Assembly (NCBI GenBank): GCA_000004985.1
Contig: GG738871.1
DNA from: Naegleria gruberi
Lineage: Eukaryota
DNA: 64,000 nt
Strand: one strand, 5' to 3'
Each line of letters starts with the position of its first letter. The first letter of the stretch is position 1. Positions 1-57,103 of the stretch are shown here, one piece after another. The notes beneath the pieces are model-generated. The model was not told the DNA's origin, searched no databases, and saw only the letters and a program-made list of their open reading frames with translations. Position numbers and translations under genes: made by a program.

Positions 1-1700
1 GCGGTCAATTCTGTGAAATTCCAAAATGTAATGGAACAATGCAAGGTGATAATTCAGTTTGCTCAGGACATGGTTCATGTGTTGGTGTTGACCTTTGTAA
101 TTGTAATTCAACTCACTGGGGAGGTAAATTCTGTGAAATTCCAAAATGTTTTGGAGTATTAGCCAATGAATCTAATGTTTGTTCAGGACATGGTTCGTGT
201 ATTGGTGCTGATTTGTGTTCCTGTAATTCCACATATTGGGGAGACGAGAACTGTCAAACAGCAAAATGTAATGGTATTTTAGCAACAGATGCAAGTGCTT
301 GTAATTATCAAGGAGTTTGTTCAGGAGCTGACTTGTGTGTTTGTAATTCAACATATGGCGGTCAATTTTGCCAAGTACCTAGATGCAATGGAACAATGCA
401 AGGTGATAATTCAGTATGTTCAGGACATGGTTCTTGTGTTGGTGTTGACAAATGTAATTGTAATTCAACATCACTGGGGAGGTCAATTCTGTGAAATTCC
501 AAAGTGTTTTGGAGTATTAGCCAATGAATCTAATGTTTGTTCAGGACATGGTTCGTGTATTGGTGCTGATTTGTGTTCCTGTAATTCCACATATTGGGGA
601 GATGAAAATTGTCAAACAGCAAAATGTAATGGTATTTTAGCTACTCAAACAAATAGTGTTTGTTATGGACATGGTTCTTGTGTAGATGCCGATGTTTGTA
701 ACTGTAATTCCACATATTGGGGTGGAGAATTCTGCAAATATCCAAAATGTTTTGGAATCTTATCCACAGAAGCAAATGCTTGTTCGGCACCAAACCAAGG
801 TTTATGTGTTGATGCAGACACTTGTGCTTGTAACTCAACTTATTGGGGAGATGAAAAGTGCCAAACATTCAAGTGTAACAATATTCTTTCCACGTCAGAC
901 TCTGTTTGTTATGGTCAAGGAGTGTGTGTAGCTGTAGATACTTGCGTTTGTAACTCAACATATGGAGGCCAATTTTGTCAAACACCAAAATGTAATGGTA
1001 CTTTGGCCGGGGATAACTTAGTATGTTCAGGACATGGTTCTTGTGATGGAGTTGACAAATGTAATTGTAATTCAACATATTGGGGAGGTCAATTCTGTGA
1101 AATTCCAAAATGTTTTGGAGTATTAGCCAATGAATCTAATGTTTGTTCAGGACATGGTTCATGTATTGGTGCTGATTTGTGTTCCTGTAATTCCACATAT
1201 TGGGGAGATGAAAATTGTCAAACAGCAAAATGTAATGGTATTCTGTCAACACAAACAAGTACTGTTTGCTACGGTCATGGTTCTTGTGTAGATGCCGATG
1301 TTTGTAATTGTAATTCCACATATTGGGGTGGAGAATTCTGCAAATATCCAAAATGTTTTGGAATCTTATCTACCGATTCTTCAACTTGTTCATTCCATGG
1401 CTTGTGTATTGATGCTGATTTGTGTTCATGTAACTCAACCCATTGGGGAGGTGAAAAGTGTGACATTCCAAAATGTAATGGAATTTTAGCAACAGATACA
1501 AATGTTTGTAATTATCAAGGAGTTTGTTCAGGAGCTGACTTGTGTGTTTGTAACTCAACATATGGAGGCCAATTTTGTCAAACACCAAAATGTAATGGTA
1601 CTTTAGCAGGTGATAGTTCAGTATGTTCAGGACATGGTTCATGTGACGGAGTTGACAAATGTACTTGCAACTCGACATATTGGGGAGGTCAATTCTGTCA
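1..1700 (+). repeat. Intragenic higher-order tandem repeat: a ~590-nt unit of six EGF modules, about 3 copies, near-identical at nucleotide level.
   Basis: Segments 110-270, 500-660 and 1090-1250 are almost identical (ggtcaattctgtgaaattccaaaatgttttggagtattagccaatgaatctaatgtttgttcaggacatggttc...). The block 1-360 recurs at 361-; protein blocks FCEIPKCFGVLANESNVCSGHGSCIGADLCSCNSTYWGDENCQTAKCNGIL recur three times. Confidence 0.7.
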
Positions 1701-4107
1701 AACTCCAAAATGTGATGGTATCTTAGCTTCCAATACTTCGACTTGTAATGGACAAGGTTCCTGTATCAATGCTGATGTTTGTATTTGTAATGATTACAAT
1801 CTTTGGGAAGGTAAATTCTGCCAAGTACCAATGTGTTACGGTAAACCACAAGGTGGATCTTCCACATGTAATAATGGAAATGGTACTTGTACATCTCCAA
1901 ATCACTGTTCCTGTAACTCTGGATATGTAGGCCCAGAATGTGAATATCCAGTTTGTTTCAATGTACCTAGCAATGACTCTTCAGTGTGTAACAATCGAAA
2001 CGGTACATGTATTTCACCTGATAAGTGTGCTTGTGAAAGTGGGTGGACTGGCGATAGTTGTCAAACACCAATCTGTTTCTCAATTTTGGGTAACTCTTCA
2101 GCTGTTTGTAGTCAAAGAGGTAGTTGTGTAGCTCCAAATTTTTGTGTTTGTAAGGATCATTATTATGGAGACGCATGTCAAAGAACTACTTGTTATGGTA
2201 TTGCTGATGATTCTAGTTCAACATGTTTTGGTCACGGTTCTTGTAGTGATTACAATACTTGTAATTGTTCATCAGGTTATGGTCCAGACAATTATTGTGA
2301 GCATCCAATATGTTATGGTTATTTAGCAAATGATACTAGAGTTTGTAACAATTCACGTGGTGTCTGTTTGAGTCCTGACGAATGTAGACCTTTGGACCCT
2401 GTATGTTTCGAAAAGGCAAAGAACGACAGTAATGTTTGCAGTGGTCATGGTAAATGTGTTGATTGGGATTATTGTGTTTGTAACACTTCAGATTATTATG
2501 GAGATCAATGTCAATATTGGAAATGTTTTACAAAGAATTACAACGCCTCAAATGTTTGTAATAACGGAAACGGTACCTGCTCATCTGTTAATAATTGTGT
2601 TTGCAACAGTGGATGGTATGGAAATGAATGTACAGTTCCAATGTGTAATGGAATTCTTGGTAATTCATCCCTCGTTTGTAACAATGGAAATGGTACCTGC
2701 TCCAAACCAGGTGCATGTCAATGTAATACTGGATATACAGGATCTGATTGTTCCATTCCAATTTGTTATGACAAATTAGCAAGTGACACAAGTAATGTTT
2801 GTTCAGGAAAGGGTTCTTGTGTTGCTAAGGATACTTGCTCTTGTCAAAACAAGTATACAGGTTATGAATGTCAATATGCCACATGTTATGGAGTTTCATC
2901 CAATTCTACAAGTGTCTGTAGTGGTAATGGTACATGTAACGGAGTTGATTCTTGTAATTGTTTATATGGTTATGGAGATTCTCAATGTAATGTTTTCAAA
3001 TGTTCCAATATTTTGGCTACTAGTAATAGCGTGTGTAGTGGAAGAGGTAAATGTTATGGAATTGATAAGTGTCAATGTGATACTGGTTACTATGGTCCTA
3101 ATTGTCAATATACCACTTGTAATGGTATTGCTGCTAACGACACTTCTGTATGTAATAGCAATGGTACCTGTACTGCTTATGAAACTTGTTCTTGCTCTGC
3201 TGATTGGTATGGCAAAAATTGTGACATTACTAAGTGTTACAATATCTTCTCAAATGATACAAGTGTTTGCAGTAGTAAGGGTAAATGTATCCTCAAGGAC
3301 AAGTGTGTCTGTACAGACATTAATTATGGTGGTTCTCAATGTGCCGATCCATACTGTTTTGGTTATTTGGCCGGAACTGTTGGAGTTTGTAGTGGAAATG
3401 GTCAATGTTTGGGAGTTAACTCTTGTAATTGTAATACTGGTTTCCTTGCCTCAAAGTGTCAATTCAAAACAATTAGTGGTATCTCTCTCACGTTCAATGC
3501 CTCTGCTGATTATGCCAATGAAACTCTCACCACCAAGGCAACTTTGTCAATTACTGACTCTTCATTCAGTACCTATTATGCTTCTACTAGCTTGAATGCT
3601 ACATTCTCATTTGTTTTCAATGGAGTTACATCAACATTCGACAAGATTCTCCCAGCCGGATCCAACAATGTTGAATTCATTCTTCCATTCTTCTACACTC
3701 AAAAAGGAACTGTTACCAGCTCTGTAACTCTCAAATTCACTGAAAGTACCACAACCATTACTGCAGGTCAAGCAACTGGTTCATCTTTAACCATTCAACA
3801 AAGAGTAATACCAACACCAACACCTACACCTATCAAATCATCACCAAAACCACAAGTTTCTCCAGCCAAATCCACCAACACTGTCAATCCAAAGGCCTCC
3901 ACTTCAACAACCACTAAGAGTGATTCCAATGTTGGAGGTGCCATTGCAGCTGGAGTCATTGTTCCATTAGTTGTAATTGGTGGAGGTGGTATCACTGCTG
4001 CCATCATTGCTGTTGTTGTCATTATGAAGAAGAAGGCCGCCACAGCAGCTGCCAGAGAACTTACCTATGCCACTCACTACGATGTTGAATTGGCTGAAGG
4101 TTACTGA
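1..4107 (+). CDS. EGF-like repeat type I membrane glycoprotein, family member C. 5-prime partial; enters the window in frame 3, shifts to frame 1 near 466-472, TGA stop at 4105-4107.
   Basis: About 35 tandem ~32-aa Cys-rich modules (CxxxGxCxxxDxCxCNSTYWGGxxCxxPKC, tenascin/EGF-like). They are followed by a ~170-aa Cys-free domain, a Thr/Pro-rich stalk, a hydrophobic helix GGAIAAGVIVPLVVIGGGGITAAIIAVVVI, and the tail KKKAATAAARELTYATHYDVELAEGY. The ORF 39..494 and the ORF 289..4107 are the same gene joined by a 1-nt insertion relative to sister repeat copies (compare 100-120 with 466-480). Confidence 0.75.
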
Positions 4108-17070: not shown

Positions 17071-20000
17071 TTATTTGAGGATAGTGTTGAGTTGCTCAGC
17101 AAGCTTTGAAGGGAAAAATCTCTTTGGTATTTCCAAAGAGTTGATCTTACCATGACCATCAAGCATATCAAATTCAAAAACATTAGCTTGGAGTGGCTTC
17201 TTGGATCCTAAATCAGTGAAATAGTTAAAGTCAACTAGAGGTTTGGATAAAACATTGTCCAGTGTTGGAATCTTCTTGCCAATGAGTTCTTCAATTTCGC
17301 GTTGAGAGAAGGTGGTATTTGAATACTCATCTGTTTCATAATTAGAATAGATATAGGCAATTTGTTGGACTGAAAGTTCTGGACAAATCTCTTGTCTTGT
17401 ACCTTCATCTTCAAGCAATTGCTTTTGAGCAATAACACAAATATCAGCTGCTTGTCTAGAAAGTGTAAAGTAAACTTGCAACTTTTCTTCATCAAAGTCC
17501 TCATTGTCATGGAATTGTTTTCTCAAAGATTGAACAACATTCTTAGAGTTGAACCAATTTTCAAGGAAGGCAACACTCATCTTAACTGAAAGACCCTTGG
17601 AGGCAGAAGCATCCTTGATAAAGTGATTGAATATAATTGAATCCAAACACATGGCAACATTTTCAAAAATGTGATTAACAACACGTTTGTCCAGCTTTTG
17701 TTGTTCAACACGTTGGTAGATTTCAGTAAGAAGTGAAATACACAATCTCATATCTGGACCACCATCTGTTGATTTGGATGAAGCTTGTTTTGGATTGAAC
17801 ACCGCCTTCACTAATCTGTCCTTCAAAAATTGGACAATCTTGGAACAGAGATTGAGATAGGCTCTAGCAAGAATATCAGTAAGAGCATCAGTAAATTCTT
17901 GCATGTCGGCAACATAAACTTCATCATCCTCAAGTACAGAGTATACTGGTGGTTCGGCCAAAATACGTTCTTCTTCCTTTGCCAAAATTGCTTGAACAGT
18001 GACACCTTCCATTGTTTCGAATGAGTGATGAACTTGATTTTCGTTTCCACTTGATTGATAGAGGTTCAAAAGTCTGTATAATACATTAACCCAATACATC
18101 ATCATCTCCTCATCTCTGGCATATCTATCTACAACGTAGGACAGAGCCTTGATAATATTTGTACAGAAGAATTTACTCGATTCTGGAGAGAACTTTAGAG
18201 TTGAGAGGAATAAAACCTTGGTTGGAGTTGGAACTTTAGAGCTTCCCAAATAGTCACTAGGTTGACTGTAGATGATTGCAGATTCAATAATGAACTTCTC
18301 TACATCAGAATTTTGCAATGATGATATTTGCTCTTTCAATTTCTTGGTTTCTTGTTCATTACCTGTCTTTGACTGTTTAAAATAATAATAATAAAAATAT
18401 TGGTTAGTAAGTTGAATAAAAATAAATAGAAAAGTGATAATTTGTTATCAGTTAGTTTTTAAGTTAGAAAAGTGTGAGTGTAAGTGTAAAAGTTAGAAAT
18501 GATATTTGCCTTTTGGTTTTCATCAAATTGTTTTTGAACTTTTTCAAGTCTTCTCTTGTCTTGCTCCAATTCATCAATTTGTTCTTCCAATTCGGTTATT
18601 CTGTTCTTTCCCTTCTTTAATTTGTTTTCCAATTCCGAGAATTTATCATCCATGTCCATAACTTTTTGGTTTAATTCCTCATTTTCTTCCTTCAACTTTT
18701 CAATTTCCTCCTCAAGTGCAAACTTTGACTTTTTATCCTCATTAACAGAATTCTATAATAATTAATAAGTTAGTACATAAAAATTCAAATTAAATAAAAA
18801 AACATAGTGAGAATTGTGGGTGATGTGTTAGTGTAAAAGTGTGTGTGATATTTGCCTTTTGTTGTTGTTCAATTTCTTCAATTCTTTCCTCAAGTTCTCT
18901 GATCAAAGTATCCTTCTCCTTGAGCTCATCTTCAGTATTCTTACTCTTTTCACTACTACCCTTCTTCAATTTTGCAATTTGATTACCAAGCTCATCAACT
19001 TCTTCTTGAAGTTGATTACGTTCTTTTTCTATCTTGGACAATTTAGAATCAACACTGTCTAGATCTTGTTCCAACTCTTCAATCTTTGAATCCTTTTGGC
19101 TATTGTCATCTTCCAACACTTGAAGTTGTCCAGAAAGCTTCTTGCATTCCATGGCTTGCTTTTTAGAATCTTCTTCAGCCTTTGCGACTTGTTGTCTGAG
19201 AGTTTCAAGTTCCTCAACCTTTGAATCAATAAGTTCATTCAATTTTATCACTTGGGTTTCACTCTCTGTAAGCTTCTTTTCTGTATCACCTAGTTTCTTT
19301 TCCGTTTCTCCAAGCTTCTTTTCGAGAGTTGTTTTTTGCTTCTTGACAATATCATCCATGGAAGCAGAATTCTTTGACAAACTTTCAATTTCTAAAATTT
19401 TTTCAGATAGGTCTTTTTCCTTTTCTTTGATCTTTTCTTCCAATTGCTGATTCTTGCTCTTGATAGTGGTAATCTCAATATCTAGATTCTTTCTCTCTTC
19501 TCTTAATGATTCGACAAGTTTGTTCAAATCCACTTCAGTTGACTATTTAAAGGTCATATGATATAAATTGTTAGTATGTTGTTTAAAATAAATGTGAAAA
19601 AAAAATGTGACATCACAGTTAGTACAAGTTAGTTCGCACCCAATAAAAAATCTAGCCTTTGGCTTTCATTCTTAAAGGGACAAATTGTTAGTTCTGGTTA
19701 GATACTTAAAGTTTTTGAAAAATATCCCGCACTCTTTGCAGAGATTGAGTGTGTAGTGTAAGATATGTACCTTTAGTTTTCTTGCCTCGGAATTAATATC
19801 AGAAACCTCATTAAATGTTTCTAAAACAGTAGAGAAGTGGCGACTAGCTTCTTGTTTCAGTTCCCCAATCGTGTTTTTCAAATGTGTAATTTCCTCAAGC
19901 AACAATTCTTCCACTTGCTTGCTAGCTTCTTTCAATTTCTTGCATTCTTCTTTCAAGTCTTCAACTTGTTGTTTGTAGCTCTCAATATCCTTATCTTTTT

Positions 20001-27638: not shown

Positions 27639-30600
27639 ATGGTTACTGGAGGCAATCTTTCAGTATCTTGCTTTAAACAAGATGTAAAATCAGTTAGAGG
27701 CCTCATTGTCCTTCTCTTGTTGATTCTCTGTTTGACAACAATTGAGAAATGTTGTGGATATTACTACACAATGAATACTGTTGGTACCTTCACTTCTGGA
27801 ACCACCTTGTATCAAATGGACAAGTCCAAATTCTTCGCTAACAGATTCTACGTAGCAACAAGTGGAGGTCTTCAGTATTTCACTGTATCAAGTGGTGTGG
27901 CAAATCCAAGTAATTCTTATGTGTATAGTGGTGGGTTTCAAACTACCAGTATGGCAAATGTTGTTGTCAGAAGTACATCATCAAGTAAAGATGATGTTTT
28001 TTCTGGTACCATTAACACCTCCACTTGGAGGTATGGTTCAATAGCCAGTTCAACCACTACTGGTAATTCACTCACCAGTTGTGGCGTTATTGTTGCTGGT
28101 GTAAAACTCGATGCAAGCTCTACAACTTTTTCTGTGATTGGCAATGGTGTTGTGGGTACATTAACAATGACAACAGGTGGTAGTGCATCTTGTTCTGCAG
28201 TTACCTCATTTACAGGAGTTTCTGGCACAAGTACCACGCCATCTACTGATGGCACAGGTAGCGCAGCTACTGTTTACTCTAGTGGTACTCATGACATTAC
28301 CAAAAATTCAACATCTGGTGTAAGTATGAGAAAATTCAATTAATTAGATCTAACAACTGGCAGGTTTATTATTTTACTGAGGATTCAAAGATTAGAAAGG
28401 TTGTTTCAACTACTATCACAACTCTGGTAGGAGGAACTACTGGTACAGTGACAGATGGTACTCTCTCCTCTGCTACAGTTAAAAATCCAAGTTTCATGTC
28501 CATCTTGGGTGCAGGTGTAAGTTTTATTGCATTGTTATGATATATTAAACTGTTAACAGCTTGTATTTTCGGATACTGGTAGTAATAGAATTAGAGTTTT
28601 GGATACAGCCAATGAAGAAGTTGTTACTATTGCTGGTGGTGGCTCAACTACCCCATCAGGTACTGCTTCACTATCTGGTGCAGCAACAGGTTTTTCTTTA
28701 ACTAGCCCAAGAGGCATTTATGTGGACACTGATGACAGTATTTATTTTGTTGAAGGAATTTATGTTAGAAAGCTTGTCTATTCTTGTGAAGCAAATGAAA
28801 TTTATCAAGCAGGCTCATTCCCACCATGTGCTTGTAATACTACTGCTGGTTATGTGAGATCTGGAACTTCTTGCGTACCTACCTGTTCCAATTGTAATGT
28901 CAATCAAACATGTACTGGTCCAGAAACTTGTTCTTGTAAGAGTGGATATTCAGGAACAGATTGTTCTGCTTTTACCTGTTTTGGTGTAGCTCAAGATTCT
29001 ACATCTGTTTGTAATTCTAAAGGATATTGTGTTGCACCTGACACGTGTATATGTAGTGATACCTCCACTTTCTTTGGGTCAAATTGTAATGTGACTTATT
29101 GTAATTCTATTCCATCAACGAGTGGTAGTGTTTGTTCAGGACATGGAAGTTGTACTGATTATAATACTTGTACTTGTAGTGATACCAATTCATGGACAGG
29201 ATCTGATTGTGGAACACCTGTATGTGCAGTTGTGAGTGGAGGTGTTTGTTCTGGAAGAGGTAGTTGTACAGCTCCAAATATTTGCACTTGTAATGAACCA
29301 TCAAAATATGGTGGATCTTCATGTGAAATTCCAAAATGTAATGGAACACTTCAAGGCAATTCTGGTGTTTGCAATGGAAGAGGTTCTTGTATTGATGTTG
29401 ATACTTGTCAATGCACTGTTCCAACCTCTTGGGGTGGTTCATTCTGTGAAAAACCATACTGCTCTGGAATTTTACAAGGTGCAGCTGGTGTTTGTTCAAA
29501 TAGAGGAGTTTGTTCATCTCCTGATTCTTGTGTTTGTAATGAACAAACAAAGTATGGTGGTTCAAATTGTCAACTTGTCAAATGTGGAGGTTATTTGGAA
29601 ACAGACTCTGCTGTTTGTAACAAGAATGGTTCATGTATTGCTGTTGATACTTGTTCCTGTAATTCAAATTATGGTGGTTCAGATTGTCAATATCCAAAGT
29701 GTAATGGCATTGCTTCGAATAGTGGTAGTGTTTGTAATTCACAAGGATCATGTGTTGCACCAAATGTTTGTGTCTGTAATTCAAATTATGCTGGACCATT
29801 ATGCGAATATCCAAAATGTAATGGCGTAGCTTCCAATGATGCAAGTGTTTGCAATTCGAATGGAACTTGTACTGGTGTTAATACTTGTGTTTGTAATGTT
29901 AACTATACAGGATCATATTGTCAATATCCAAAATGTAATGGAATATCTTCCAATGATGCAAGTGTTTGTAATAACAAAGGTGGTAATTGTATTGCACCAA
30001 ATGTTTGTTCATGTAATTCAAGTTATACTGGTCAATTCTGTCAATTCCCAAAGTGTAATGGTATTGGATCCAATGATGCAAGTGTTTGTAATGCAAATGG
30101 TACTTGTATTGGAATTAATGTTTGTTCATGCAATTCAAATTATGCTGGTCCATATTGTCAATATCCAAAATGTAATGGTATTGCTTCAAATAGTGGTAGT
30201 GTTTGTAATTCACAAGGATCATGTGTTGCACCAAATGTTTGCGCCTGTAATTCAAATTATGCTGGTACATATTGTGATAAACCAAGATGTGGAACCTTTT
30301 ATAAGGGAGATGCTTCTGTTTGTAATTCGAGAGGTAGTTGTGATGCTGTTGATAGTTGTACTTGTAGTGATACATCTTCTTGGGGTGGTAATTTGTGTCA
30401 ATATCCAAAATGTAATGGTGTTCTTTCAAATATTGGAACTGTTTGTAGCAGTAGAGGTACTTGTCAATCTCCAAACAATTGTTCATGCACTGATCCAAAT
30501 TCATATGGTGGTTCATATTGTGAAAAAGCAAAATGTTATGGAATTCTTCAAGGAGATTCAAATGTTTGCAGTGGACATGGTACTTGTAGTGGTGTGAATC

Positions 30601-32542
30601 AATGTTCATGCAGTGCTGGATATGGAGGTGAACAATGTCAATATCCAAAATGTTTCAATATTTTGAGTAATGAAACAACAGTTTGTAACAATAGAAACGG
30701 TACTTGTACTGCACCTGACACTTGTTCATGTAATAATGGATGGACTGGAAGCAAGTGTGATGTTGCCATTTGTTTTTCAATTCTCTCCAATTCAACAAGT
30801 GTTTGTTCAAACAAGAGAGGTAATTGTGTCACACCAGATAATTGTGTTTGTAAAAGTCAATATTCAGGTTCTCAATGTGAATATACCACTTGTTCTGGAA
30901 TAAGATCAGATCAACATCGACAGTATGTTATGGAAATGGTCAATGTATTGATTATTTACTTGTAATTGTACAACTGGTTATGGACCATCCAATGTATGTC
31001 AATATCCAATTTGTGGTGGTTATTTAGCAAATGATACCAGAGTTTGTAACAATTCAAGAGGTGTTTGTTCCAAACCAAATACATGTAGACCATTAGATCC
31101 CGTATGTTATGGTAAAGCTCAGAATAATTCAATGGTTTGCAGTGGAAATGGAGCATGTGTTGATTGGGATTATTGTGAATGTAAAACTGGTTTCAATGGA
31201 AATGAATGTCAAAATTGGGAATGTTATGGAAAGAATTATACCAACTCAAATGTTTGTAACAATAGAAATGGTACCTGTTCATCTGTGAATAATTGTGTTT
31301 GCAACAGTGGATGGTATGGAAATGAATGTACAGTTCCAATGTGTAATGGAATTCTTGCTAATTCATCTCTCATTTGTAACAATAGAAATGGTACCTGCTC
31401 CAAACCAGGTGCATGTCAATGTAATACTGGATACACAGGACCTGATTGCTCCATTCCAATTTGTTATGGAAAATTAGGCAAGTGACACAAGTAATGTTTG
31501 TTCAGGAAGAGCAGAATGTATTGGTTATAACAAGTGTAATTGTGACACTTCCAAGTATAGTGGTTCACAATGTGAATATTTCAAATGTTTTGGTATTCCA
31601 TCAAATGATGCTTCAGTTTGCAGCAGAAACGGAACATGCTCTGGAGTGAATCAATGTTCTTGTAATTATGGTTATGGTTCTTCAAATTGTGACATTTTCA
31701 CATGTTCAAACGTTCTTGCCACCGATTCGAGTGTTTGCACTGGAAAGGGTGTATGTTATGGAATTGACAAGTGTTCATGTGATTCAGGATATTTTGGATC
31801 AAATTGTGAAATTATCTCCTGTTATGGAATTCCAAAGTCCAACAATACTGTATGTGGAGGAGTTGGTGAATGTTCACAACTTGATACATGTGTTTGTGGA
31901 AGCAATTATAGAGGATCAATGTGTGAATTATCTTACACCTCTTCATCTCAAGCAACACTTCAATTCAATAATACGAATGAATATGTGAATGAACAATTCA
32001 CAAGCATGGCCACTTTGACAATTAATAATCCTCTCTTCGGTCAATATTATTTGAGAAGAAGTGTTCAAGTTGTTGTTTCATTTGAAATTAATTCACAATT
32101 CAGTTATTCTGAAACACTTTATATTGAAAATGGAGTTTCATCTGTTTCATTAATGGTGAAATCGTTGAGTCAAACTGGTACATTGAAAGCATCTGCTCAA
32201 TTAATTGATAATAGTACATTAATTTCCATTTCAGATAGCATTCAATCTTCAAATAGCATTACAATTCAAAATAGACCTATTGTTGTTCCATCCACAACGA
32301 CATCCACAATCAAACCAACAACCTCTGCACAAACAAGTAGAGCTGTTATCGATACAGGAAGTAATGGTGGAGCCATTGCAGCTGGTATCATTGTTCCAGT
32401 GGCAGTTATTGGAATTGGAGGTGGTGTCACTGCAGCCATTGTCACAGCAGTTGTTTTGTTAAAGAAGAAGGCTGCTGCAGCTGCTGCCAAAGAAATTACA
32501 CATGCTCAACACGTCAATGTTGAACTAGCTGAAGGTTTCTAA
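27639..32542 (+). pseudogene. NHL-propeller/EGF-repeat membrane protein paralog A. Exons 27639..28319, 28364..28516 and 28560..32542; three frameshifting indels near 30913, 30956 and 31480 relative to paralog B.
   Basis: Same architecture as B (44914..49716). 28860-32542 is ~98% identical to 46030-49716 at nucleotide level, but reading requires frames 0, 1 and 2 (ORFs 28599..30965, 31132..31485, 31646..32542). Could be a recent pseudogene or assembly indels. Confidence 0.55.
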
Positions 32543-32791
32543 TCTTGTTGATAAAAATTCATTACTGCTTTCTCCAAAATATTTTCAATGAAGTCATAAA
32601 GTTGATTTCCAAAACCAATAACTTACATCTTGTATTAAACCTTTATCTTGTTAGAGTTGGCAACATAATGATTTTTCATATTTATTTGGATGTTGTTTTG
32701 TAAACACACTTGTCGAATCAATCCATTGATTTTTGACAAGATCAACACAGTAGTAGCCCGATTAGTCCCTCCATTTTCCATTATAAAAAAA

Positions 32792-34798: not shown

Positions 34799-36712
34799 CT
34801 AATGTTGCAGGTAATCATGATGAACACGACCAGCAGGCATGATCATGTCAACCTTAAAGTTAAAGGCACCAACAACTTGCTTGACAGGGAGATCACTAAT
34901 TGGAGCGTTAACGTGAGGAATGAGTGCAAGCTTAGCATCTCCCTTATAGGCACTAGTTACATTTAGGTTGGCATGTTCCATTCTAACCAATTGAACAATA
35001 GCTGGATCACCACGAACGTCAGGAATATGCTTTAAGAATAATTGAGGAGTGGACAAGTAGGAAACGACATCTTCGAAAGCCATTCTTTCATACTTGTAGG
35101 ACATTGTACCAGTTGCAACTCTGCAACCATTGCAATCCAATGTACCCTTCAAAGTATCTTGAGTTGGAGCGAATGTAATACCATCACAGAACTTTTGAGG
35201 TAAACCAAGACATTCTCTACCATATGTAATTGGAGATGAAGAATCCAAGAAACTCATAGTGTTAAAGTGGATAGAGTTACCTTCGTTATCAGTACATGGA
35301 ACAATCAAGTCAACCTTGTAATAACTACCAATACCAGTACCATGAGTATTGACGAATTGAAGAATTACAATATTGTCTTCATTTGGAGTGAGTTGATCTG
35401 GAATCTTTTCCAACAAAGATTCTCTATCTGTTACATATTTGATAACCATGTATTCTCTGTCTTGGAGCTTTGAAGCAGATGGCTTATAGGATGGACATGT
35501 TACTGGCATTGCCAATGACTCTTCTGTAATTTTCTTTTCGGTAAAGATTGATCTGTATTGACCTGGTTGGACAAACATTTGGTGGAATTTTTGAGAAACA
35601 GCCTTATTTTCTTCAGTTGGTTCGAGATAATCATGCAAAACATTACCGTATGGCAACAAGATATCAGCCATCATGTGTTTACCTTGAATAACCTTCTTGA
35701 CAGGCAAATCAGCAACTGGTGCATTAACATTTTCAACCAAGTGCAATCTAGCTGGACCTTCAAAGGCAAAATGCAACTTTTTAACTTGCAAGTTATATGA
35801 AACAATTTGGGCAATCTTTGGCTTGAAATCAACATCAGGAATAATCTTCAAATTAATATTGGTCTTTCCCATTGATTTCAAAACAGTATCATGATCAAGT
35901 TCAGTGTGTTTGTAAGCCATTGTACCTTGAGCAACAGTTTCTCCCTTATATTTCATAACACCAACAACTGTATCTTGAATACATTTCATGGATGGGTGAG
36001 CATGTTTTTTCTAATTATATGACACAATTAATATTTCCATTTTGCTTCCGAGATTTAAAACTTACAGGAAAACCCCAAATTTCACGACCTTAATATTTAC
36101 AAGTTATTGACACAAATTAGATAATTGTTGAAATACTACTTACCAGCAGCAATTGGTGGTTCAATATCCAAATACATTTGGAGAGTAAGATTAACTGATT
36201 CTCCATTATAAGTGCAAGGAATGACAATACCTGATTCGGAATACTAACAATTAATTCATCATATATATTAAATTCTCAAAATCATTAATATCACTTACAG
36301 ATCCGAAACCAGAAGAGTCTGGCATGTTAATCCTTTAAAGAAGTTAATATCATTTCTGTAATTAAAAACACATACCATTCATACAATACATGACTATTTT
36401 CATTAGGGACAAGTGGTTCTGGAACCAAAGCACGAAGAGCTTCGGCATCAGTTTCATACGTAACAATAAAGTATTCTCTGTTCTTGAAAAAGTATGGTCC
36501 TAATATCAATATTATTGTAACCGATGAAAATATATGAAATAACAATGATGAATGATAACAAAGATGACAAACTTACCTCTCGGATAAGAAGGAGACATAA
36601 TAGGAGTAGAAGGTAATCCCAAAATCATATCCTTGGTAAATTTACCCTTCTCTTTACCTGGTTTAATAATTGATTTGAATGCTCTAGCAAAAACTGAAGG
36701 TGAAACTCTCAT
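34799..36712 (-). CDS. Tandem double acetoacetate decarboxylase-like (ADC/MppR family) protein. Five exons: 36577..36712, 36376..36499, 36300..36333, 36144..36243, 34799..36010. The start may instead be the upstream ATG at 36772.
   Basis: Domain 1 ([96 protein letters not shown]...DLPVKKV...DYL) aligns along its length with Clostridium ADC ([36 protein letters not shown]...NEPAIAVGRE...DLPVKEI). Domain 2 ([39 protein letters not shown]...DLPVKQV...DYLQH) is a second complete copy. Confidence 0.7.
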
Positions 36713-44913: not shown

Positions 44914-47900
44914 ATGAAACTAGTGAGCTTTCCCTATCATTTGTTGATTGCTGCTTGTGTAGTGTTACTTCTTGGCAAAGTTAGTGCATGGAGATATTCT
45001 GTGAAAACTCTTGCTACAGGTCTAGGCAGTATTTCTCAAATTGTTGGCTCTCCAAAATATATTTATGTTACACTTGGCTCCAGTTCAAAGAAGATTTATG
45101 CCTACGATAGACAATTATTGGCCACTCAGTCTGTACAAACATTGCAACAAGTCCACGATATAACAGCATCATCAAACAATATTGGTTATATTGCTTATCA
45201 TGGCAATGATTCGAATGACGCTGAAGTGATATCAGTAGCTGGCAATAATTTTCCAAACAATGTGGGTTTGTACTGGTTTACATGCTCATCAACCTGTTCC
45301 ACTCCAACACCCTTCTCTTATAATATAAGGGTCTCAGGAATTAGATCCCTAGGAATTGAGAACTCAACTCCCAAACTTTACATAACAAGACAAACAGCAA
45401 TTTACACTGGCACTCCTTCAGCAAATGCTATTGTATCAACAACTGGAACAATCAATTTTAAAGCTTTCAATGATGTTGATTATATTGGCAATACAGTAAG
45501 TTTTAATTATTTTGCAAATAGGTAACATTGGTTTAGGTTTATTTTACTGACTCAGGTGGAAACCTAAAAATTGCAACAAGTTCAACACCATTAATCAGTG
45601 TAGGCACATTTAGTGATGGTGCCAGTGGTACTGCTCGTTTATCTTCAGGCACAACATTCATCTCTGCACAGTTCAATAAGGTATGTAGTTATGAACAATA
45701 TGTTGTTGGAATAATTTTAAAAGATTTTTATCTCAGACACTGGAAACAGTAGAATTAGACTTTATGATATTGCTACAGGAATTACAACTACAATAGCTGG
45801 TGATCCTTCTAAATCAACAGCTGGAACAACAACTTTCAGTTTATCCGACGTACCAACTAATTACAAATTCACACCAACAGGTATTTGGATTGATAACTCT
45901 AATGGTATCATTTATTTTGCAGACACCAGTACCTTGAGAGCTTTAGTTCCAACTTGTAACAGTACTACAGAAGATCAATCTTCAACTTACCCTTTCTGTA
46001 CTTGTAAAACTGGATATTCATTGGTAAATGGAGATTGTGTTGCATCCACTAGTTGTTCTCCAGGATTGTGTAATGACAATCAAACATGTACTGGCCCAGA
46101 AACTTGTTCTTGTAAGAGTGGATATTATGGAACAAATTGTGATAATTATGACTGTTATGGAACTCAGAAGGATAATCTTTCTGTATGTAATGGAAAAGGT
46201 GTTTGCGTTTCTCCAAACACGTGTATTTGCACCAATGCAAACTATGATGGCTTTAATTGTAATATTACAACTTGTAATTCTATTCCATCAACGAGTGGTA
46301 GTGTTTGTTCTGGACATGGAAGTTGTACTGATTATAATACTTGTGCTTGTAGTGATACCAATTCATGGACAGGATCTGATTGTGGAACACCTGTATGTGC
46401 AGCTGTGAGTGGAGGTGTTTGTTCTGGAAGAGGTAGTTGTACAGCTCCAAATATTTGTACTTGTAATGAACCATCAAAATATGGTGGATCTTCATGTGAA
46501 ATTCCAAAATGTAATGGAACACTTCAAGGCAATTCTGGTGTTTGCAATGGAAGAGGTTCTTGTATTGATGTTGATACTTGTCAATGCACTGTTCCAACCT
46601 CTTGGGGTGGTTCATTCTGTGAAAAACCATACTGCTCTGGAATTTTACAAGGTGCAGCTGGTGTTTGTTCAAATAGAGGTGTTTGTTCATCTCCTGATTC
46701 TTGTGTTTGTAATGAACAAACAAAGTATGGTGGTTCAAATTGTCAACTTGTTAAATGTGGAGGTTATTTAGAAACAGACTCTGCTGTTTGTAACAAGAAT
46801 GGTTCATGTATTGCTGTTGATACTTGTTCCTGTAATTCAAATTATGATGGCCAATTTTGTCAATATCCAAAATGTAATGGCATTGCTTCAAATAGTGGTA
46901 GTGTTTGTAATTCACAAGGATCATGTGTTGCACCAAATGTCTGCTCTTGTTTCACAAATTATGCTGGACCATTATGCGAATATCCAAAATGTAATGGCGT
47001 AGCTTCCAATGATGCAAGTGTTTGTAGCTCGAATGGTACCTGTACTGGTGTTAATACTTGTGTTTGTAATGTTAACTATACAGGATCATATTGTCAATAT
47101 CCAAAATGTAATGGAATATCTTCAAACGATGCAAGTGTCTGTAATAACAAAGGTGGTAATTGTATTGCACCAAATGTTTGTTCATGTAATTCAAGTTATA
47201 CTGGTCAATTCTGTCAATTCCCAAAGTGTAATGGTATTGGATCCAATGATGCAAGTGTTTGTAGTGCAAATGGTACTTGTATTGGAATTAATATTTGTTC
47301 ATGCAATTCAAATTATGCTGGTCCATATTGTCAGTATCCAAAATGTAATGGCATTGCTTCAAATAGTGGTAGTGTTTGTAATTCACAAGGATCATGTGTT
47401 GCACCAAATGTTTGCGCCTGTAATTCAAATTATGGTGGTACATATTGTGATAAACCAAGATGTGGAACCTTTTACAAGGGAGATGCTTCTGTTTGTAATT
47501 CGAGAGGTAGTTGTGATGCTGTTGATAGTTGTACTTGTAGTGATACTTCTTCTTGGGGTGGCAATTTGTGTCAATATCCAAAATGTAATGGTGTTCTTTC
47601 AAATATTGGAACTGTTTGTAGCAGTAGAGGTACTTGTCAATCTCCAAACAATTGTTCATGCACTGATCCAAATTCATATGGTGGTTCATATTGTGAAAAA
47701 GCAAAATGTTATGGAATTCTTCAAGGAGATTCAAATGTTTGTAGTGGACATGGTACTTGTAGTGGTGTGAATCAATGTTCATGTAGTGCTGGATATGGAG
47801 GTGAACAATGTCAATATCCAAAATGTTTCAATATTTTGAGTAATGAAACAACAGTTTGTAACAATAGAAACGGTACTTGTACTGCTCCTGACACTTGTTC

Positions 47901-49716
47901 ATGTAAAAATGGATGGACTGGAAGCAAGTGTGATGTTGCCATTTGTTATTCAATTCTCTCCAATTCAACAAGTGTTTGTTCAAACAAGAGAGGTAATTGT
48001 GTCACACCAGATAATTGTGTTTGTAAAAGTCAATATTCAGGTTCTCAATGTGAATATACCACTTGTTCTGGAATAAGATCAGATCAAACATCGACAGTAT
48101 GTTATGGAAATGGTCAATGTATTGATTATAATACTTGTAATTGTACAACTGGTTATGGACCATCCAATGTATGTCAATATCCAATTTGTGGTGGTTATTT
48201 AGCAAATGATGCCAGAGTTTGTAACAATTCAAGAGGTGTTTGTTCCAAACCAAATACATGTAGACCATTAGATCCCGTATGTTATGGTAAAGCTCAGAAT
48301 AATTCAATGGTTTGCAGTGGAAATGGAGCATGCGTTGATTGGGATTATTGTGAATGTAAAACTGGTTTCAATGGAAATGAATGTCAAAATTGGGAATGTT
48401 ATGGAAAGAATTATACCAACTCAAATGTCTGTAACAATGGAAATGGTACCTGTTCATCTGTGAATAATTGTGTTTGTAACAGTGGATGGTATGGAAACGA
48501 ATGTACAGTTCCAATGTGTAATGGAATTCTTGGCAATTCATCTCTCGTTTGTAACAATAGAAATGGTACCTGCTCCAAACCAGGTGCATGTCAATGTAAT
48601 ACTGGATACACAGGACCTGATTGCTCCATTCCAATTTGTTATGGAAAATTAGGCACTGATACAAGTAATGTTTGTTCAGGAAGAGCAGAATGTATTGGTT
48701 ATAACAAGTGTAATTGTGACACTTCCAAGTATAGTGGTTCACAATGTGAATATTTCAAATGTTTTGGTATTCCATCAAATGATGCTTCAGTTTGCAGCAG
48801 AAACGGAACATGCTCTGGAGTGAATCAATGTTCTTGTAATTATGGTTATGGTTCTTCAAATTGTGACACTTTCACATGTTCAAATGTTCTTGCCACCAAT
48901 TCAAGTGTTTGCAGTGGAAAGGGTGTATGTTATGGAATTGACAAGTGTTCATGTGATTCAGGATATTTCAGTACCAATTGCGAGCTATTTTCTTGTTATG
49001 GAATTCCAAAGTCCAACAATACTGTATGTGGAGGAGTTGGTGAATGTTCACAACTTGATACATGTGTTTGTGGAAGCAATTATAGAGGATCAATGTGTGA
49101 ATTATCTTACACCTCTTCATCTCAAGCAACACTTCAATTCAATAATACGAATGAATATGTGAATGAACAATTCACAAGCATGGCCACTTTGACAATTAAT
49201 AATCCTCTCTTCGGTCAATATTATTTGAGAAGAAGTGTTCAAGTTGTTGTTTCATTCCAAATTAATTCACAATTCAGTTATTCTGAAACACTTTATATTG
49301 AAAATGGAGTTTCATCTGTTTCATTAATGGTGAAATCATTGAGTCAAACTGGTACATTGAAAGCATCTGCTCAATTAATTGATAATAGTACATTGATTTC
49401 CATTTCAGATAGTATTCAATCTTCAAATAGCATTACAATTCAAAATAGACCTATTGTTGTTCCATCCACAAAGACATCCACAACCAAACCAACAACCTCT
49501 GCACAAACAAGTAGAGCTGTTATCGATACAGGAAGTAATGGTGGAGCCATTGCAGCTGGTATCATTGTTCCAGTGGCAGTTATTGGAATTGGAGGTGGTG
49601 TCACTGCAGCCATTGTCACAGCAGTTGTTTTATTAAAGAAGAAGGCTGCTGCAGCTGCTGCCAAAGAAATTGCACATGCCCAACACGTCAATGTTGAACT
49701 AGCTGAAGGTTTCTAA
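44914..49716 (+). CDS. NHL-propeller/EGF-repeat type I membrane glycoprotein, paralog B (intact). Exons 44914..45495, 45546..45680 and 45724..49716.
   Basis: Signal peptide MKLVSFPYHLLIAACVVLLLGKVSA. NHL-like blades (VYFTDSGGNLKIA; IFISDTGNSRIRLYDIATGITTTIAG; GIWIDNSNGIIYFADTSTL). About 35 EGF/tenascin-like Cys modules, a Cys-free ~170-aa domain, Ser/Thr stalk, helix GGAIAAGIIVPVAVIGIGGGVTAAIVTAVVLL, and tail KKKAAAAAAKEIAHAQHVNVELAEGF. Introns GTAAGT...TTTAG and GTATGT...AAAAG. Confidence 0.8.
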
Positions 49717-49863
49717 TTGTTCATTATGATAGTTTGTCAATAATAAACTTTAAATTTTGATGTTTAGTGAAATGATGCTCAATTATTTAAATGGTTCGTA
49801 ATTGTCTCTCCTAACAAAATAGAAACTACAACCAAATCACAGGGCATCACAACACAAAATAAA

Positions 49864-54404: not shown

Positions 54405-55544
54405 TTAATATTCATCATCTTCGTTTTGAGTTGATTTGTGAATATTTAAATTTCCATTTCTGCTGAATGTGAAATTTTGTTGTTCTCCTCTTATGGTAGG
54501 TTTGGAATGTGTTTCCAACAAAATGTCATCTGATTTAATTTCATTTTTTGATTCTTCCTGTTCTTTTTGTAATTTTTCTAAGAATTCCAAATGTTTTCTT
54601 TGTCTTGGATTAAGTGGGAGGGGTCTTGAGATTCGTTCAACTTTTCTTTCCTCATTCGAAAGGTCATTTCTTCTACTTTTCTTTGAAACGAGCCCTTCAC
54701 CATCACTCTCTGAAAAGTGTTCATTCGAAACAACTTCTTCTTCGTTTCTTTCCTCTGTTTCGTCCTCTTTCTCTTTCGATTCGTCTTCATCACTGGAAAA
54801 GAATGGAGCTCCTTCCAATGCCTTCTTCTTTTCCTTCAATTTCTTCAATCGTTTGCTTCTCTCCTTCTCCACCTTCTTCTCATACAATTTCATAAAATGT
54901 TTATCTTTCAACATTTCCTCTTCCAGAACTGAAATTTCAGTTTTGGAAATTTTAATCTTGTAACAATCAATGAAAAGTCCAACAATGGTCGATACGAAAA
55001 ATAAAACCATCGAAACAATCAGTACAATACTAGTAATGTCCTTCTTGAATACCAAATCAGTATAATTCTCAAAGAAAGAGCTCGATCTCTCAAATCTCCA
55101 CTGATTTCCCAGACAAATCATTCCATTCGAAAAGTTTCTGCTCCCCTCTTCGCATTGATAACAGTGGTGATGAATGCACTCCAGGTCTCCTTCCAGCCAC
55201 AGGGAATTACCCAAATCACTGGTTGTTTCCATTGTTTCCTCATTGGAATTATCGGCACAGACCCATTTAGAGAGGAGAATATTTCTGGAACAGTTGGCAG
55301 CCCATTTTGGATGCTCTGTGATGAGAACACATTGTTTCAAACTCTCGGAGCAATACTCACCCACAGAGCAATCGGGATGAATTGGAAAATTTGGATATTG
55401 ATGTGGAGGAATCGAACGACATGAAGAAGAGCTTGCTAATGTTGGTGTGAATGAATTTACAATTGTGATGAAGAAGAAAATAATGATGTATAAGAGGGGT
55501 GATGATTGGTTGGTTTTCCGTACGGAATTATCTGTTGAAAACAT
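54405..55544 (-). CDS. Type I membrane protein with Cys-rich ectodomain and highly charged Lys/Glu-rich cytoplasmic tail.
   Basis: Probable start MFSTDNSVRKTNQSSPLLYIIIFFFITIVNSFTPTLA (signal). About 14 Cys ectodomain, TM ITSIVLIVSMVLFFVSTIVGLFI, then KEKKKALEG...DEDESKEKEDETEERNEEE tail. The upstream part of ORF 54405..55649 overlaps the neighbouring gene's 3-prime end, so the start was set at 55544. Confidence 0.45.
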   Translation of the reverse strand: MFSTDNSVRKTNQSSPLLYIIIFFFITIVNSFTPTLASSSSCRSIPPHQYPNFPIHPDCSVGEYCSESLKQCVLITEHPKWAANCSRNILLSKWVCADNSNEETMETTSDLGNSLWLEGDLECIHHHCYQCEEGSRNFSNGMICLGNQWRFERSSSFFENYTDLVFKKDITSIVLIVSMVLFFVSTIVGLFIDCYKIKISKTEISVLEEEMLKDKHFMKLYEKKVEKERSKRLKKLKEKKKALEGAPFFSSDEDESKEKEDETEERNEEEVVSNEHFSESDGEGLVSKKSRRNDLSNEERKVERISRPLPLNPRQRKHLEFLEKLQKEQEESKNEIKSDDILLETHSKPTIRGEQQNFTFSRNGNLNIHKSTQNEDDEY

Positions 55545-55635
55545 GGTTGATACTATGGAATGATTAAGGTACAATTTTTTTTTAAGGAAATTTCCTATTT
55601 TGTAAATTTTTAGTTTACAAATAAATGAATGTATT

Positions 55636-57103
55636 TTATAGAAAATCATTTTCCTCTAAGGCACAAGGTGCTGCGTCTTCGGCAATGTGAATATGAGACT
55701 TTCCTCCAGGTCCATTCAGTTGCATCTTATTTCCACAAATTGTTGATGTCTTGGTTGATTCCAAAACAATGGCATTTCTGGTGTGTCCACTAAAGACACT
55801 TCTCTCAATTCTCATAGAGGCCTCACCTTTGCAGAGAATGGCATTTCCATCATTCTTTTGAAAGAGACTTTTGGTTACTTCACACAGAGTGTCATCTTCG
55901 AGTCGCATTCCATGAAGTTTGTTAAATTCCACGTGGCACTCGGTCATGATTAATTTGGGAGGATCACAAATTGGTTTCTTACTACCAGTCGATGGCAGTG
56001 GCGGTGGAGGTGGTTGAGTGTTTGATTCAATTGATGCTGTCGAAGGAGTTGTAGAAACTGCTGCATCAGTTGTGTTTTTCACAGGTGGAATGTATAATCT
56101 ATTCTTTACAGTAACACCAACTCCATAACTTGCTCTCAAATGGACATGTTGCAGAGTGCATGATCCTGAAACAATTTCCAAACACGACGCCGATTCATAA
56201 AATAAAATACTATCCCTAGCAGCATTCTGTGTGAGTGTGACATGTTCAAATTTGACACTTCCCCCACCATCCAATAAACGTTGTTTTTCCAATTGTTGAA
56301 TTGTTAAATTCTCATTAAAAGAGTCCACTCTCAAAATTGATTTTGAGCTATCCGAAGAGGCAATATGTACAAGTGATGAATCTGGATAAACTCCACGAAT
56401 GGTGAGTGGTTTCTTAATGACAACTGTTTCAGGAACTTTGTAAATTCCACTTCTCAAAACAACATGGTCTCCCTCCTTTGCAAAATCAACAGCTCTCTGT
56501 ATATCATGAAAAGTACAATCTTCACTAAAATCTGGATCAACTACATGAAGTCTGTAATCTGAATTCCTAACAGATGAATCATTAATTTCCTTTATCCAAT
56601 TGCTTTGGTCATTTTCATCCTCACAAGCAAGATAATAAGTACGATGAGGTGAAATGATTTTAATACCAAATTTCTTTTTGTAATTCAATTCGGCTGCTTG
56701 ACAAGTTAATCCCTGAACATTAATCATTCCTTTGGGTTTGGTATCTTTCTGTGATACATAGTAATATAATTTTCCTCTATTTTTTAAATTATTAATAAGT
56801 ATTGTAGGTTAAAGATGAGAATATAGTATTCGAAACACATACTGATGCAAAATACATAATCTCTCGTGCCATGTTTTAATGGAACCTCCTCGTTTGGTCT
56901 ATTCATTTCAAATATATTATGAAAATGTATAACGGTTATTATTATTGAAATTGTTCCGAATACAAATTGTTTCGAATAAAACCTACCAGTGTTCCTACAA
57001 AGTCGTGGTCTCTCATCAATTCAGAAGCAGATACTTTGGGTGGTTCCTCCACTATCTCCTTCCACTTCTTACCAGCCTTCTTTACTTTATCTTGTGATGA
57101 CAT
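55636..57103 (-). CDS. PH-domain protein with C-terminal right-handed beta-helix (PbH1/CASH-like) domain. Exons 56987..57103, 56843..56898 and 55636..56776.
   Basis: MSSQDKVKKAGKKWKEIVEEPPKVSASELMRDHDFVGTL/TKRGGSIKTWHERLCILHQ/GKLYYVSQKDTKPKGMINVQGLTCQAAELNYKKKFGIKIISPHRTYYLACEDENDQSNWIKEIN is a complete PH domain split by two introns (88 and 66 nt). Then repetitive beta-helix rungs and a Pro-rich linker PPPPPLP. Confidence 0.65.

What the first reader, a model, noticed from the sequence alone, without database searches (positions are those of the whole stretch)
30900..31490. Paralog A carries three frameshifting indels while staying ~98% identical to B
Indels near 30913 (caaa to caa), 30956 (attataatact to attatttact) and 31480 (ggcactgat to ggcaagtgac) force frames 0, 1 and 2. 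One is a homopolymer change; two are not. This looks like recent pseudogenisation of A, possibly kept similar to B by conversion. The alternative is sequencing indel error.
Basis: seen in the sequence. Interest (0 to 1): 0.5.

Follow-up and report, generated by a model that had tools for sequence, protein, structure and literature searches.

The report
Three frameshifts in a Naegleria gene copy
One of three neighbouring copies of a Naegleria gruberi cell-surface protein gene carries three single-base gaps or insertions that break its reading frame; it looks intact otherwise, so it is either a very young dead gene or a draft-sequencing error, both ordinary.

Summary
The window is Naegleria gruberi (Sanger draft). 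It holds three paralogous genes, C, A and B, for type-I membrane proteins with about 27 EGF-like repeats.

A and B are only 29% identical in their N-terminal parts. From A 29099 to about 8 nt past the stop codon they are 97.5% identical in DNA. The edges of this 3.44-kb block are razor sharp, which indicates gene conversion.

Inside the block A has exactly three 1-bp indels: -1 at 30913, -1 at 30956 and +1 at 31480. With C as outgroup, all three arose in A. B is uninterrupted. As written, A stops at 30963-30965 and loses about 9 EGF repeats, the stalk and the membrane anchor.

Everything else in A looks functional:
- It keeps its signal peptide.
- Two 43-44-nt introns sit at the same positions as in B.
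- All 142 cysteine columns are conserved.
- The repaired frame has no stop.
- dN/dS against B is 0.19.
- A shows no excess of changes outside the 567-nt interval.

The lesions are therefore very young or unreal. No independent N. gruberi reads or proteins could be reached. I give about 50% to a real young lesion and about 42% to a consensus artefact. Interest is low.

The parts
27639..28319 (+). Gene A, exon 1. Starts at ATG and includes a hydrophobic signal-peptide-like N-terminus.
   Evidence: ORF and splice-site reading. The donor GTAAGT lies at 28320.
28320..28363 (+). Gene A, intron 1 (44 nt, GTAAGT...CAG). It sits at the same position as the 41-nt intron 1 of B.
28364..28516 (+). Gene A, exon 2.
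28517..28559 (+). Gene A, intron 2 (43 nt, GTAAGT...CAG). It sits at the same position as the 43-nt intron 2 of B.
28560..32542 (+). Gene A, exon 3: EGF-like repeat array, stalk, membrane anchor and conserved tail. It is interrupted by the three indels. Repairing them gives a 1605-aa protein.
29099..32550 (+). A side of the A/B block: 97.5% DNA identity with sharp edges. This is the conversion tract.
46272..49724 (+). B side of the same block.
30911..30914 (+). Indel 1. A has CAAC where B has CAAAC, so one A is missing from a 3-base run. The homologous frame shifts from 0 to 2.
30953..30958 (+). Indel 2. A has TATTTA where B has TATAATA and C has TACAATA, so one base is missing and there is an adjacent A>T. 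The frame shifts from 2 to 1.
30963..30965 (+). First in-frame stop (TAA) met by a ribosome reading A as written. The product is 1079 aa with no membrane anchor.
31479..31481 (+). Indel 3. A has GGCAAGTGAC, C has G-CAAGTGAC and B has GGCA-CTGAT, so A has one extra base. The frame shifts from 1 to 2. A TGA at 31483-31485 closes frame 1.
44914..49716 (+). Gene B, the intact paralog. Exons are 44914-45495, 45537-45680 and 45724-49716, giving 1572 aa. Pfam finds EGF_2, EGF_TEN and EGF_Teneurin.
1..4107 (+). Gene C, the third paralog, cut by the window start. It served as outgroup. It shares a 90-97% identity island (about 2557-2810) with A 31255-31508 and with B.

Best explanation
A is an unprocessed, intron-retaining paralog in a Naegleria gruberi family of type-I membrane proteins. 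These have a signal peptide, a divergent N-terminal domain, about 27 teneurin/tenascin-type EGF repeats, a stalk, a membrane anchor and a conserved tail. The 3' 3.44 kb of A was homogenised with B by interlocus gene conversion. That step rests on the mosaic, sharp-edged identity pattern and is an inference from it. Both copies then evolved under purifying selection (measured: dS about 0.068, dN/dS 0.19). Very recently, the A copy, or one allele of it, acquired three A-specific 1-bp indels within 567 nt. These truncate the product after about 19 EGF repeats and remove the anchor. The indels are clustered and the rest of A shows no decay. I therefore infer one local event rather than three independent hits over a long neutral period. 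Examples of such an event are a short conversion patch copied from a decayed family member elsewhere in the genome, or error-prone repair. On this reading A is a very young null or pseudogene allele in a family that turns over by duplication, conversion and loss.
For: All three indels are present, and all are A-derived with B and C as references. B is uninterrupted. Gene conversion is supported by sharp block edges, a separate 50-nt island and 29% identity in the N-terminal parts. Youth is supported by dN/dS of 0.19, 142 of 142 cysteine columns conserved, no stop in the repaired frame and conserved introns. In the stretch where C polarises changes reliably, A-specific changes are 3 non-synonymous and 0 synonymous (plus one substitution beside indel 2). 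B-specific changes there are 2 non-synonymous and 6 synonymous (Fisher p = 0.03-0.06). Frame-breaking lesions are not unique to A in this window. Paralog C has a +1 shift at about 470 relative to its own repeat. A DUF4116-repeat gene changes frame at about 61545 in a way best explained by loss of one TTAA of a TTAATTAA, which is not a typical base-calling error. The window has no N and so no assembly gap within 64 kb. The assembly is Sanger-based (PMC9928731 Table 1).
Against: No read-level or independent sequence was available. Three 1-bp indels inside one Sanger-read length, in an otherwise pristine gene, is also the classic signature of a locally poor draft consensus. Outside the interval the A lineage is not accelerated: A-derived 14 synonymous and 11 non-synonymous, against B-derived 13 and 10. 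Independent neutral decay long enough to collect three indels would be expected to raise the non-synonymous count. No donor carrying the A-specific variants exists in the window.
Confidence: 0.5

Rival explanations
1. Consensus artefact. A is an intact, functional gene. The three 1-bp indels, and perhaps the few A-specific non-synonymous differences between them, are base-calling or consensus errors in a locally low-coverage, low-quality or paralog-confused stretch of the 8x Sanger draft.
For: All lesions are 1-bp length changes lying within 567 nt, less than one Sanger read (clustering p = 0.04-0.07). The gene is otherwise pristine: dN/dS 0.19, all cysteines kept, introns and signal peptide intact, no stop in the repaired frame. 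There is no A-lineage excess of changes outside the interval. A-specific substitutions inside the interval are all non-synonymous, as random errors mostly would be. The region is 98% identical to B and 83-97% identical to C, so reads could be mis-recruited. C also shows a 1-bp shift next to a perfectly repeated block.
Against: Sanger consensus at about 8x normally has roughly 1e-4 errors per base or fewer (my own knowledge). Three errors in 567 nt need a local rate about 50 times higher. There is no gap (N) anywhere in the 64-kb window. Mis-recruited B or C reads cannot create variants that neither B nor C carries. Indel 2 is a complex change, not a simple homopolymer miscount.
Confidence: 0.42
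2. Older, conversion-maintained pseudogene. A died some time ago and stays 98% like B only because B keeps converting it.
For: A clear conversion signature exists between A and B.
Against: The differences that built up since the last homogenisation are mostly silent (48.5 synonymous against 34.5 non-synonymous changes; dN/dS 0.19). They are symmetric between A and B outside the interval, so A was under selection for most of that time. Conversion from B after the lesions arose would have erased them. No other lesion exists in 4.8 kb of coding sequence.
Confidence: 0.05
3. The shifts are bypassed or used. Options are programmed ribosomal frameshifting, transcript slippage or editing, cryptic introns, or the anchorless 1079-aa product being a functional secreted isoform.
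For: The premature stop lies in the last exon, so exon-junction-dependent mRNA decay would not be expected (inference). The truncated product keeps the signal peptide and about 19 EGF repeats.
Against: No slippery heptamer or long homopolymer lies at any site (sequence). The shifts have mixed sign and a net of -1. Stops follow within 17 codons of the first shift and 1 codon of the third. No short canonical intron like the gene's real 41-44-nt introns spans the sites; the only frame-joining GT..AG candidates are 208-388 nt and lie in sequence that B reads straight through as coding. The downstream 1.6 kb is still conserved in the old frame.
Confidence: 0.03

Closest known systems
Young unprocessed (duplicated) pseudogenes in multigene families that evolve by birth-and-death plus interlocus gene conversion. 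Human CYP21A1P/CYP21A2 is a textbook case in which conversion patches carry disabling lesions (from my own knowledge, not tested here).
   Same: The paralog lies 17 kb away, and introns and upstream structure are retained. A sharp-edged conversion tract is present. The disabling lesions are small indels. They form a local cluster compatible with a short imported patch.
   Different: No donor carrying the lesions was found in the window. Relaxed selection is not detectable gene-wide (dN/dS 0.19). Whether the lesions are real is unverified.
Frameshift artefacts in draft whole-genome shotgun assemblies.
   Same: These are single-base length changes clustered within one read length, in a gene that otherwise looks functional and lies in a region with near-identical paralogs.
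   Different: The assembly is Sanger-based, where homopolymer errors are not systematic. The window has no gaps. One lesion is complex. None of the variants can be derived by mixing B or C reads.
Heterolobosean EGF-repeat membrane proteins. The best database relatives are Naegleria lovaniensis C9374_014632 (P0001) and C9374_011222 (P0002), both annotated 'EGF-like domain-containing protein'. N. gruberi NAEGRDRAFT_49505 (P0006) comes from a contig of the same length, 417,575 bp.
   Same: They share the architecture of teneurin/tenascin-type EGF arrays (Pfam EGF_2, EGF_TEN, EGF_Teneurin). Identity is 42-52% over most of the length.
   Different: None is an ortholog-level match. No N. gruberi protein corresponding to A, B or C is in the searched collections.

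Membership tests
Unprocessed (duplicated) pseudogene | Clear homology to a functional paralog, with gene structure retained (introns, 5' region). | tested here: met
   A and B share two tiny introns (44 and 43 nt against 41 and 43 nt) at the same positions. Both have a signal-peptide-like start and the full domain order.
Unprocessed (duplicated) pseudogene | Disabling lesions (frameshift or premature stop) present in the genome itself. | tested here: inconclusive
   The assembly shows three A-specific 1-bp indels and a stop at 30963-30965. No reads or independent sequence were available to confirm them.
Unprocessed (duplicated) pseudogene | Relaxed selection (dN/dS approaching 1, loss of key residues). 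| tested here: not met
   dN/dS against B is 0.19, 142 of 142 cysteine columns are kept, and the repaired frame has no stop. Outside the interval A-derived changes are 14 synonymous and 11 non-synonymous, against 13 and 10 for B. Only inside 30913-31490 are A-specific changes all non-synonymous (3-4 against 0)..
Unprocessed (duplicated) pseudogene | No functional transcript or protein. | not testable with these tools
   No N. gruberi transcript or read data could be reached.
Interlocus gene conversion tract | A sharply bounded block of near-identity between paralogs that are otherwise strongly diverged. | tested here: met
   Identity jumps from about 50-70% to 98-99% at 29098/29099 and collapses about 8 nt after the stop codon. 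The N-terminal parts are 29% identical in protein and the flanks cannot be aligned.
Interlocus gene conversion tract | Mosaic or patchy structure. | tested here: met
   There is an isolated 49/50-identical island at 28901-28950. Clustered-difference patches lie at 29674-29683, 29768-29781, 29852-29867 and 31795-31819. A separate island of 90-97% identity to C lies at 31255-31508.
Interlocus gene conversion tract | Paralogs group by species rather than by locus when orthologs from sister species are added. | not tested
   No ortholog-level sequences were recovered. The best hits are 42-52% identical.
Programmed ribosomal frameshift or transcriptional slippage site | A slippery heptamer or long homopolymer at the shift, a single defined shift, and conservation of the shift in relatives. 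| tested here: not met
   The sites read GATCAACATCG, GATTATTTACTTG and TTAGGCAAGTGAC, with no X XXY YYZ motif and no run longer than 3. There are three shifts of mixed sign. B and C lack them.
Draft-assembly indel error | Low coverage or low quality at the sites, and absence of the indels in independent reads. | not testable with these tools
   No quality values or reads are available. Indirect evidence only: clustering within 567 nt, no N in the window, Sanger platform.
EGF-repeat type-I membrane protein family of Naegleria | An array of teneurin/tenascin-type EGF domains plus a C-terminal membrane anchor and conserved tail. | tested here: met
   Pfam hits on B are EGF_2 (5.5e-57), EGF_TEN (4.3e-49) and EGF_Teneurin (6.3e-34). 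A hydrophobic anchor and the ...KKKAA.AAA.E.T.A.H..VELAEG[FY] tail are shared by A, B and C.

The most novel reading that the evidence does not exclude
The broken copies are not just debris. In this clustered family (C, A, B and at least one more paralog from a contig of the same length), frameshifted members would serve as sequence reservoirs. Short patches would move between them and intact members by gene conversion, diversifying the EGF-repeat ectodomains of surface receptors. Alternatively, the frameshift turns A into an anchorless, secreted 1079-aa version that is actually used. The mosaic identity pattern, the local cluster of A-specific changes and a second shifted paralog (C) are compatible with this reading but do not show it.
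Probability: 0.06. Interest if true: 0.5.

Novelty: new member of a known kind. Interest (0 to 1): 0.15.

Why it matters
The main value is practical. Anyone annotating or counting this large Naegleria EGF-repeat surface-protein family needs to know that A should be modelled as one 1605-aa gene carrying three suspect positions. It should not be modelled as several genes or with invented introns. The locus is also a clean, datable example of interlocus gene conversion in a heterolobosean: a 3.44-kb tract with dS about 0.07, ending exactly at the stop codon. If reads confirm the lesions, A is a very young null allele and could help calibrate gene turnover in the family. If reads remove them, the case adds nothing to biology.

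Tried and rejected
**Looking for independent copies of A or B**
- Two large protein searches were run, one with repaired A (1328 aa) and one with its last 555 aa. Neither returned anything above about 52% identity, so no N. gruberi A, B or C model and no read-assembly fragment exists in that collection.
- Exact-sequence look-ups of my B model and the truncated A model found nothing.
- Exact look-ups of window ORFs and of two N. gruberi proteins that the searches had returned found no encoding contig.
- Two metagenome scans with patterns spanning indel 3 and indel 1 found nothing.

**Donors**
- A search for in-window donors of the three A-specific variants, allowing 3 mismatches, returned only A itself.

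**Intron rescue**
- A permissive GT..AG search finds only long candidates (208-388 nt) that B reads through as coding. This gene's real introns are 41-44 nt. Intron rescue is rejected.

**Shared motif**
- The 8-mer TCAACATC is shared by indel 1 of A and the shift in C. It occurs 15 times in the window, so I dismissed it as chance.

**Window-wide frameshift control**
- Abutting open frames gave 7 junctions. One is a normal intron (about 8570). One looks like a real 4-nt deletion (61545). Two (about 55650 and about 17100) stayed unresolved. This was too crude to give an error rate.

**Literature**
- The N. gruberi genome paper (PMID 20211133) is not held. Searches for frameshift or pseudogene notes on this assembly gave nothing usable.

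Full report
**Origin and setting**

The window is 34.3% G+C and has no N. An acetoacetate-decarboxylase ORF at 34799-35989 (minus strand) is 100% identical to a Naegleria gruberi predicted protein from a 417,575-bp contig. The only N. gruberi genome listed in PMC9928731 Table 1 is strain NEG-M: Sanger-sequenced, 40.9 Mb, 35% G+C.

The finding lies in one of three paralogous plus-strand genes:
- C spans 1-4107 and is cut by the window start.
- A spans 27639-32542.
- B spans 44914-49716.

Pfam on B finds teneurin/tenascin-type EGF arrays: EGF_2, EGF_TEN and EGF_Teneurin. All three genes end in a hydrophobic anchor and a conserved tail. The closest database relatives are N. lovaniensis and N. gruberi 'EGF-like domain-containing' proteins at 42-52% identity.

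**The observation**

K-mer offsets between A and B change from 17173 to 17174 to 17175 and back to 17174. A gapped alignment shows exactly three indels in the block:
- At 30913 A lacks one A (CAAAC in B, CAAC in A).
- At 30956 A lacks one base and has an adjacent A>T (TATAATAC in B, TATTTAC in A).
- At 31480 A has one extra base.

B is a single open frame from 45721 to 49713. A breaks into 28557-30962, 30952-31482 and 31478-32539, in three different frames. The net change is -1. Read as written, A terminates at TAA 30963-30965 after 1079 residues. It loses about 9 EGF repeats, the stalk and the anchor.

A three-way alignment with C shows that B and C have the same length at all three sites, so all three indels are A-specific. 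At the third site C reads AGCAAGTGACACA and B reads AGGCACTGATACA. The two neighbouring substitutions are therefore B-specific, and A's change is a simple one-base doubling.

**What A and B are to each other**

Both genes have the same three-exon structure, with two tiny canonical introns at matching positions: 44 and 43 nt in A, 41 and 43 nt in B. A is thus an unprocessed duplicate, not a retro-copy.

The N-terminal 458 and 425 residues are only 29% identical. From the motif CNSIPSTSG onward the proteins are 97.3% identical, and the DNA is 97.5% identical. The 5' edge is abrupt, between 29098 and 29099. The 3' edge lies about 8 nt after the stop codon, and the flanks cannot be aligned. A separate island of 49/50 identity lies at 28901-28950.

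Inside the block there are four short patches of clustered differences. A's version of two of them resembles other repeat units of the same genes. There is also an island at 31255-31508 where A and B are both 90-97% identical to C. This mosaic is the standard signature of interlocus and intragenic gene conversion.

**How old are the lesions?**

With the three indels repaired, A against B over 1148 codons gives 48.5 synonymous and 34.5 non-synonymous differences. That is dS 0.068, dN 0.013 and dN/dS 0.19. All 142 cysteine columns are conserved, and the repaired frame has no stop. So for most of the time since the last homogenisation, both copies were under purifying selection.

I polarised the differences with C:

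| Region | A-derived synonymous | A-derived non-synonymous | B-derived synonymous | B-derived non-synonymous |
|---|---|---|---|---|
| Outside the indel interval | 14 | 11 | 13 | 10 |
| Inside 30913-31490 | 0 | 3 (plus one beside indel 2) | 6 | 2 |

Polarisation is noisy outside the interval because C is distant there, but the counts are symmetric and A shows no gene-wide acceleration. Inside the interval C is close enough to polarise reliably. There the contrast has Fisher p = 0.03-0.06.

The three indels span 567 nt of a 3.4-4.8-kb target, which gives a clustering p of 0.04-0.07. Whatever happened was therefore recent and local.

**Real or artefact?**

Arguments for a consensus artefact:
- All lesions are single-base length changes.
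- All lie within one Sanger-read length.
- The gene is otherwise pristine.
- The A-specific substitutions in the interval are all non-synonymous, as random errors mostly would be.
- Near-identical paralogs could confuse read placement.

Arguments for real lesions:
- A Sanger consensus at about 8x rarely reaches the local error rate needed (my own knowledge).
- The 64-kb window has no assembly gap.
- B or C reads cannot generate variants that neither carries, and no in-window donor exists.
- One lesion is complex.
- Other repeat-family genes in the same window are also frame-broken. C has an extra A at about 470 relative to its own upstream repeat copy. A DUF4116-repeat gene changes frame at about 61545 in a way best explained by loss of one TTAA from TTAATTAA.

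If real, three independent hits without accompanying decay are unlikely. A single local event fits better. One candidate is a short conversion patch from a decayed family member elsewhere in the genome. Another is error-prone repair.

I could not reach any independent N. gruberi sequence. Protein searches, exact look-ups, contig look-ups and metagenome scans all came back empty for this locus.

My estimates are:
- About 50% for a real, very young lesion, possibly allele-specific.
- About 42% for a consensus artefact.
- About 5% for an older pseudogene kept similar by conversion.
- About 3% for bypass of the shifts or a functional truncated form.

**Alternatives examined and rejected**

- Programmed frameshifting or slippage: there is no slippery motif and no long homopolymer. 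The shifts have mixed sign, stops follow almost at once, and the shifts are absent from B and C.
- Intron rescue: only long GT..AG candidates (208-388 nt) join the frames, inside sequence that B translates straight through. The gene's real introns are 41-44 nt.
- 'Kept similar by conversion after death': the mostly silent, symmetric divergence argues against it, and conversion from B would erase the indels.

**Comparison with what is known, and verdict**

Both leading explanations are ordinary: a young unprocessed pseudogene or null allele in a conversion-prone multigene family, or a draft-assembly frameshift. The conversion tract itself is a tidy example, but the phenomenon is well known. Nothing here is mechanistically new.

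For annotation, A should be treated as one gene of 1605 codons with three flagged positions. Interest is low. Trace or PCR data would settle the question in a day.

Noticed in passing
window 358-560 (shift at about 467-470), compared with 1-200: Paralog C is also frame-broken. AATTCAACATCACTGGGG carries one extra A relative to its own upstream repeat copy, AATTCAAC-TCACTGGGG at about 105-122. As a result the EGF repeats in 3-491 are in a different frame from the rest of the gene (283-4104). The shift lies about 35 nt upstream of a run of more than 100 nt that is identical between the two repeat copies (offset 358).
   Followed up: partly
window 60865-61853, junction at about 61540-61550: A DUF4116-repeat gene changes frame in the middle of a repeat: ...LKSDRELRNR* continues as IKESVKYRGVDIQFAS in another frame. 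The repeat register fits loss of one TTAA from GAATTAATTAAGGAA, a 4-nt slippage deletion. This would be a second type of frame-breaking lesion in a repeat-family gene of this window.
   Followed up: partly
window 28901-28950 and 46077-46126: An isolated 50-nt island of 49/50 identity between A and B. It is separated from the main conversion tract by about 150 nt of strongly diverged sequence.
   Followed up: partly
window 29674-29683, 29768-29781, 29852-29867, 31795-31819: Four short patches hold 5-12 clustered A/B differences each, inside a tract that is otherwise 98-99% identical. A's version of the first two resembles other EGF units of the same genes (29551, 30139, 30233), which suggests intragenic micro-conversion.
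   Followed up: partly
window 31255-31508, 48430-48682 and about 2557-2810: All three paralogs share an island of 90-97% identity that ends abruptly near 31508. Indel 3 of A (31480) lies about 25 nt from that edge.
   Followed up: partly
genes A, B and C as a whole: No N. gruberi protein matching A, B or C is present in the protein collection, not even for the intact 1572-aa B. Yet the neighbouring acetoacetate decarboxylase and another EGF paralog from a contig of the same length (NAEGRDRAFT_49505) are there. Either these genes were never modelled or they are missing from the collection.
   Followed up: partly
window 28320-28363, 28517-28559, 45496-45536, 45681-45723: The introns of A and B are very short (41-44 nt) with GTAAGT or GTATGT donors. 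Their positions are conserved although the surrounding exons are only about 29% identical.
   Followed up: yes
window 54408-56808, minus strand, junction at about 55640-55655: Two long open frames (390 and 416 codons) abut with a 17-nt overlap in different frames. The upstream frame ends in the middle of a Beta_helix domain match (profile positions 13-91 of 158). This could be two genes, an intron or another frameshift.
   Followed up: partly
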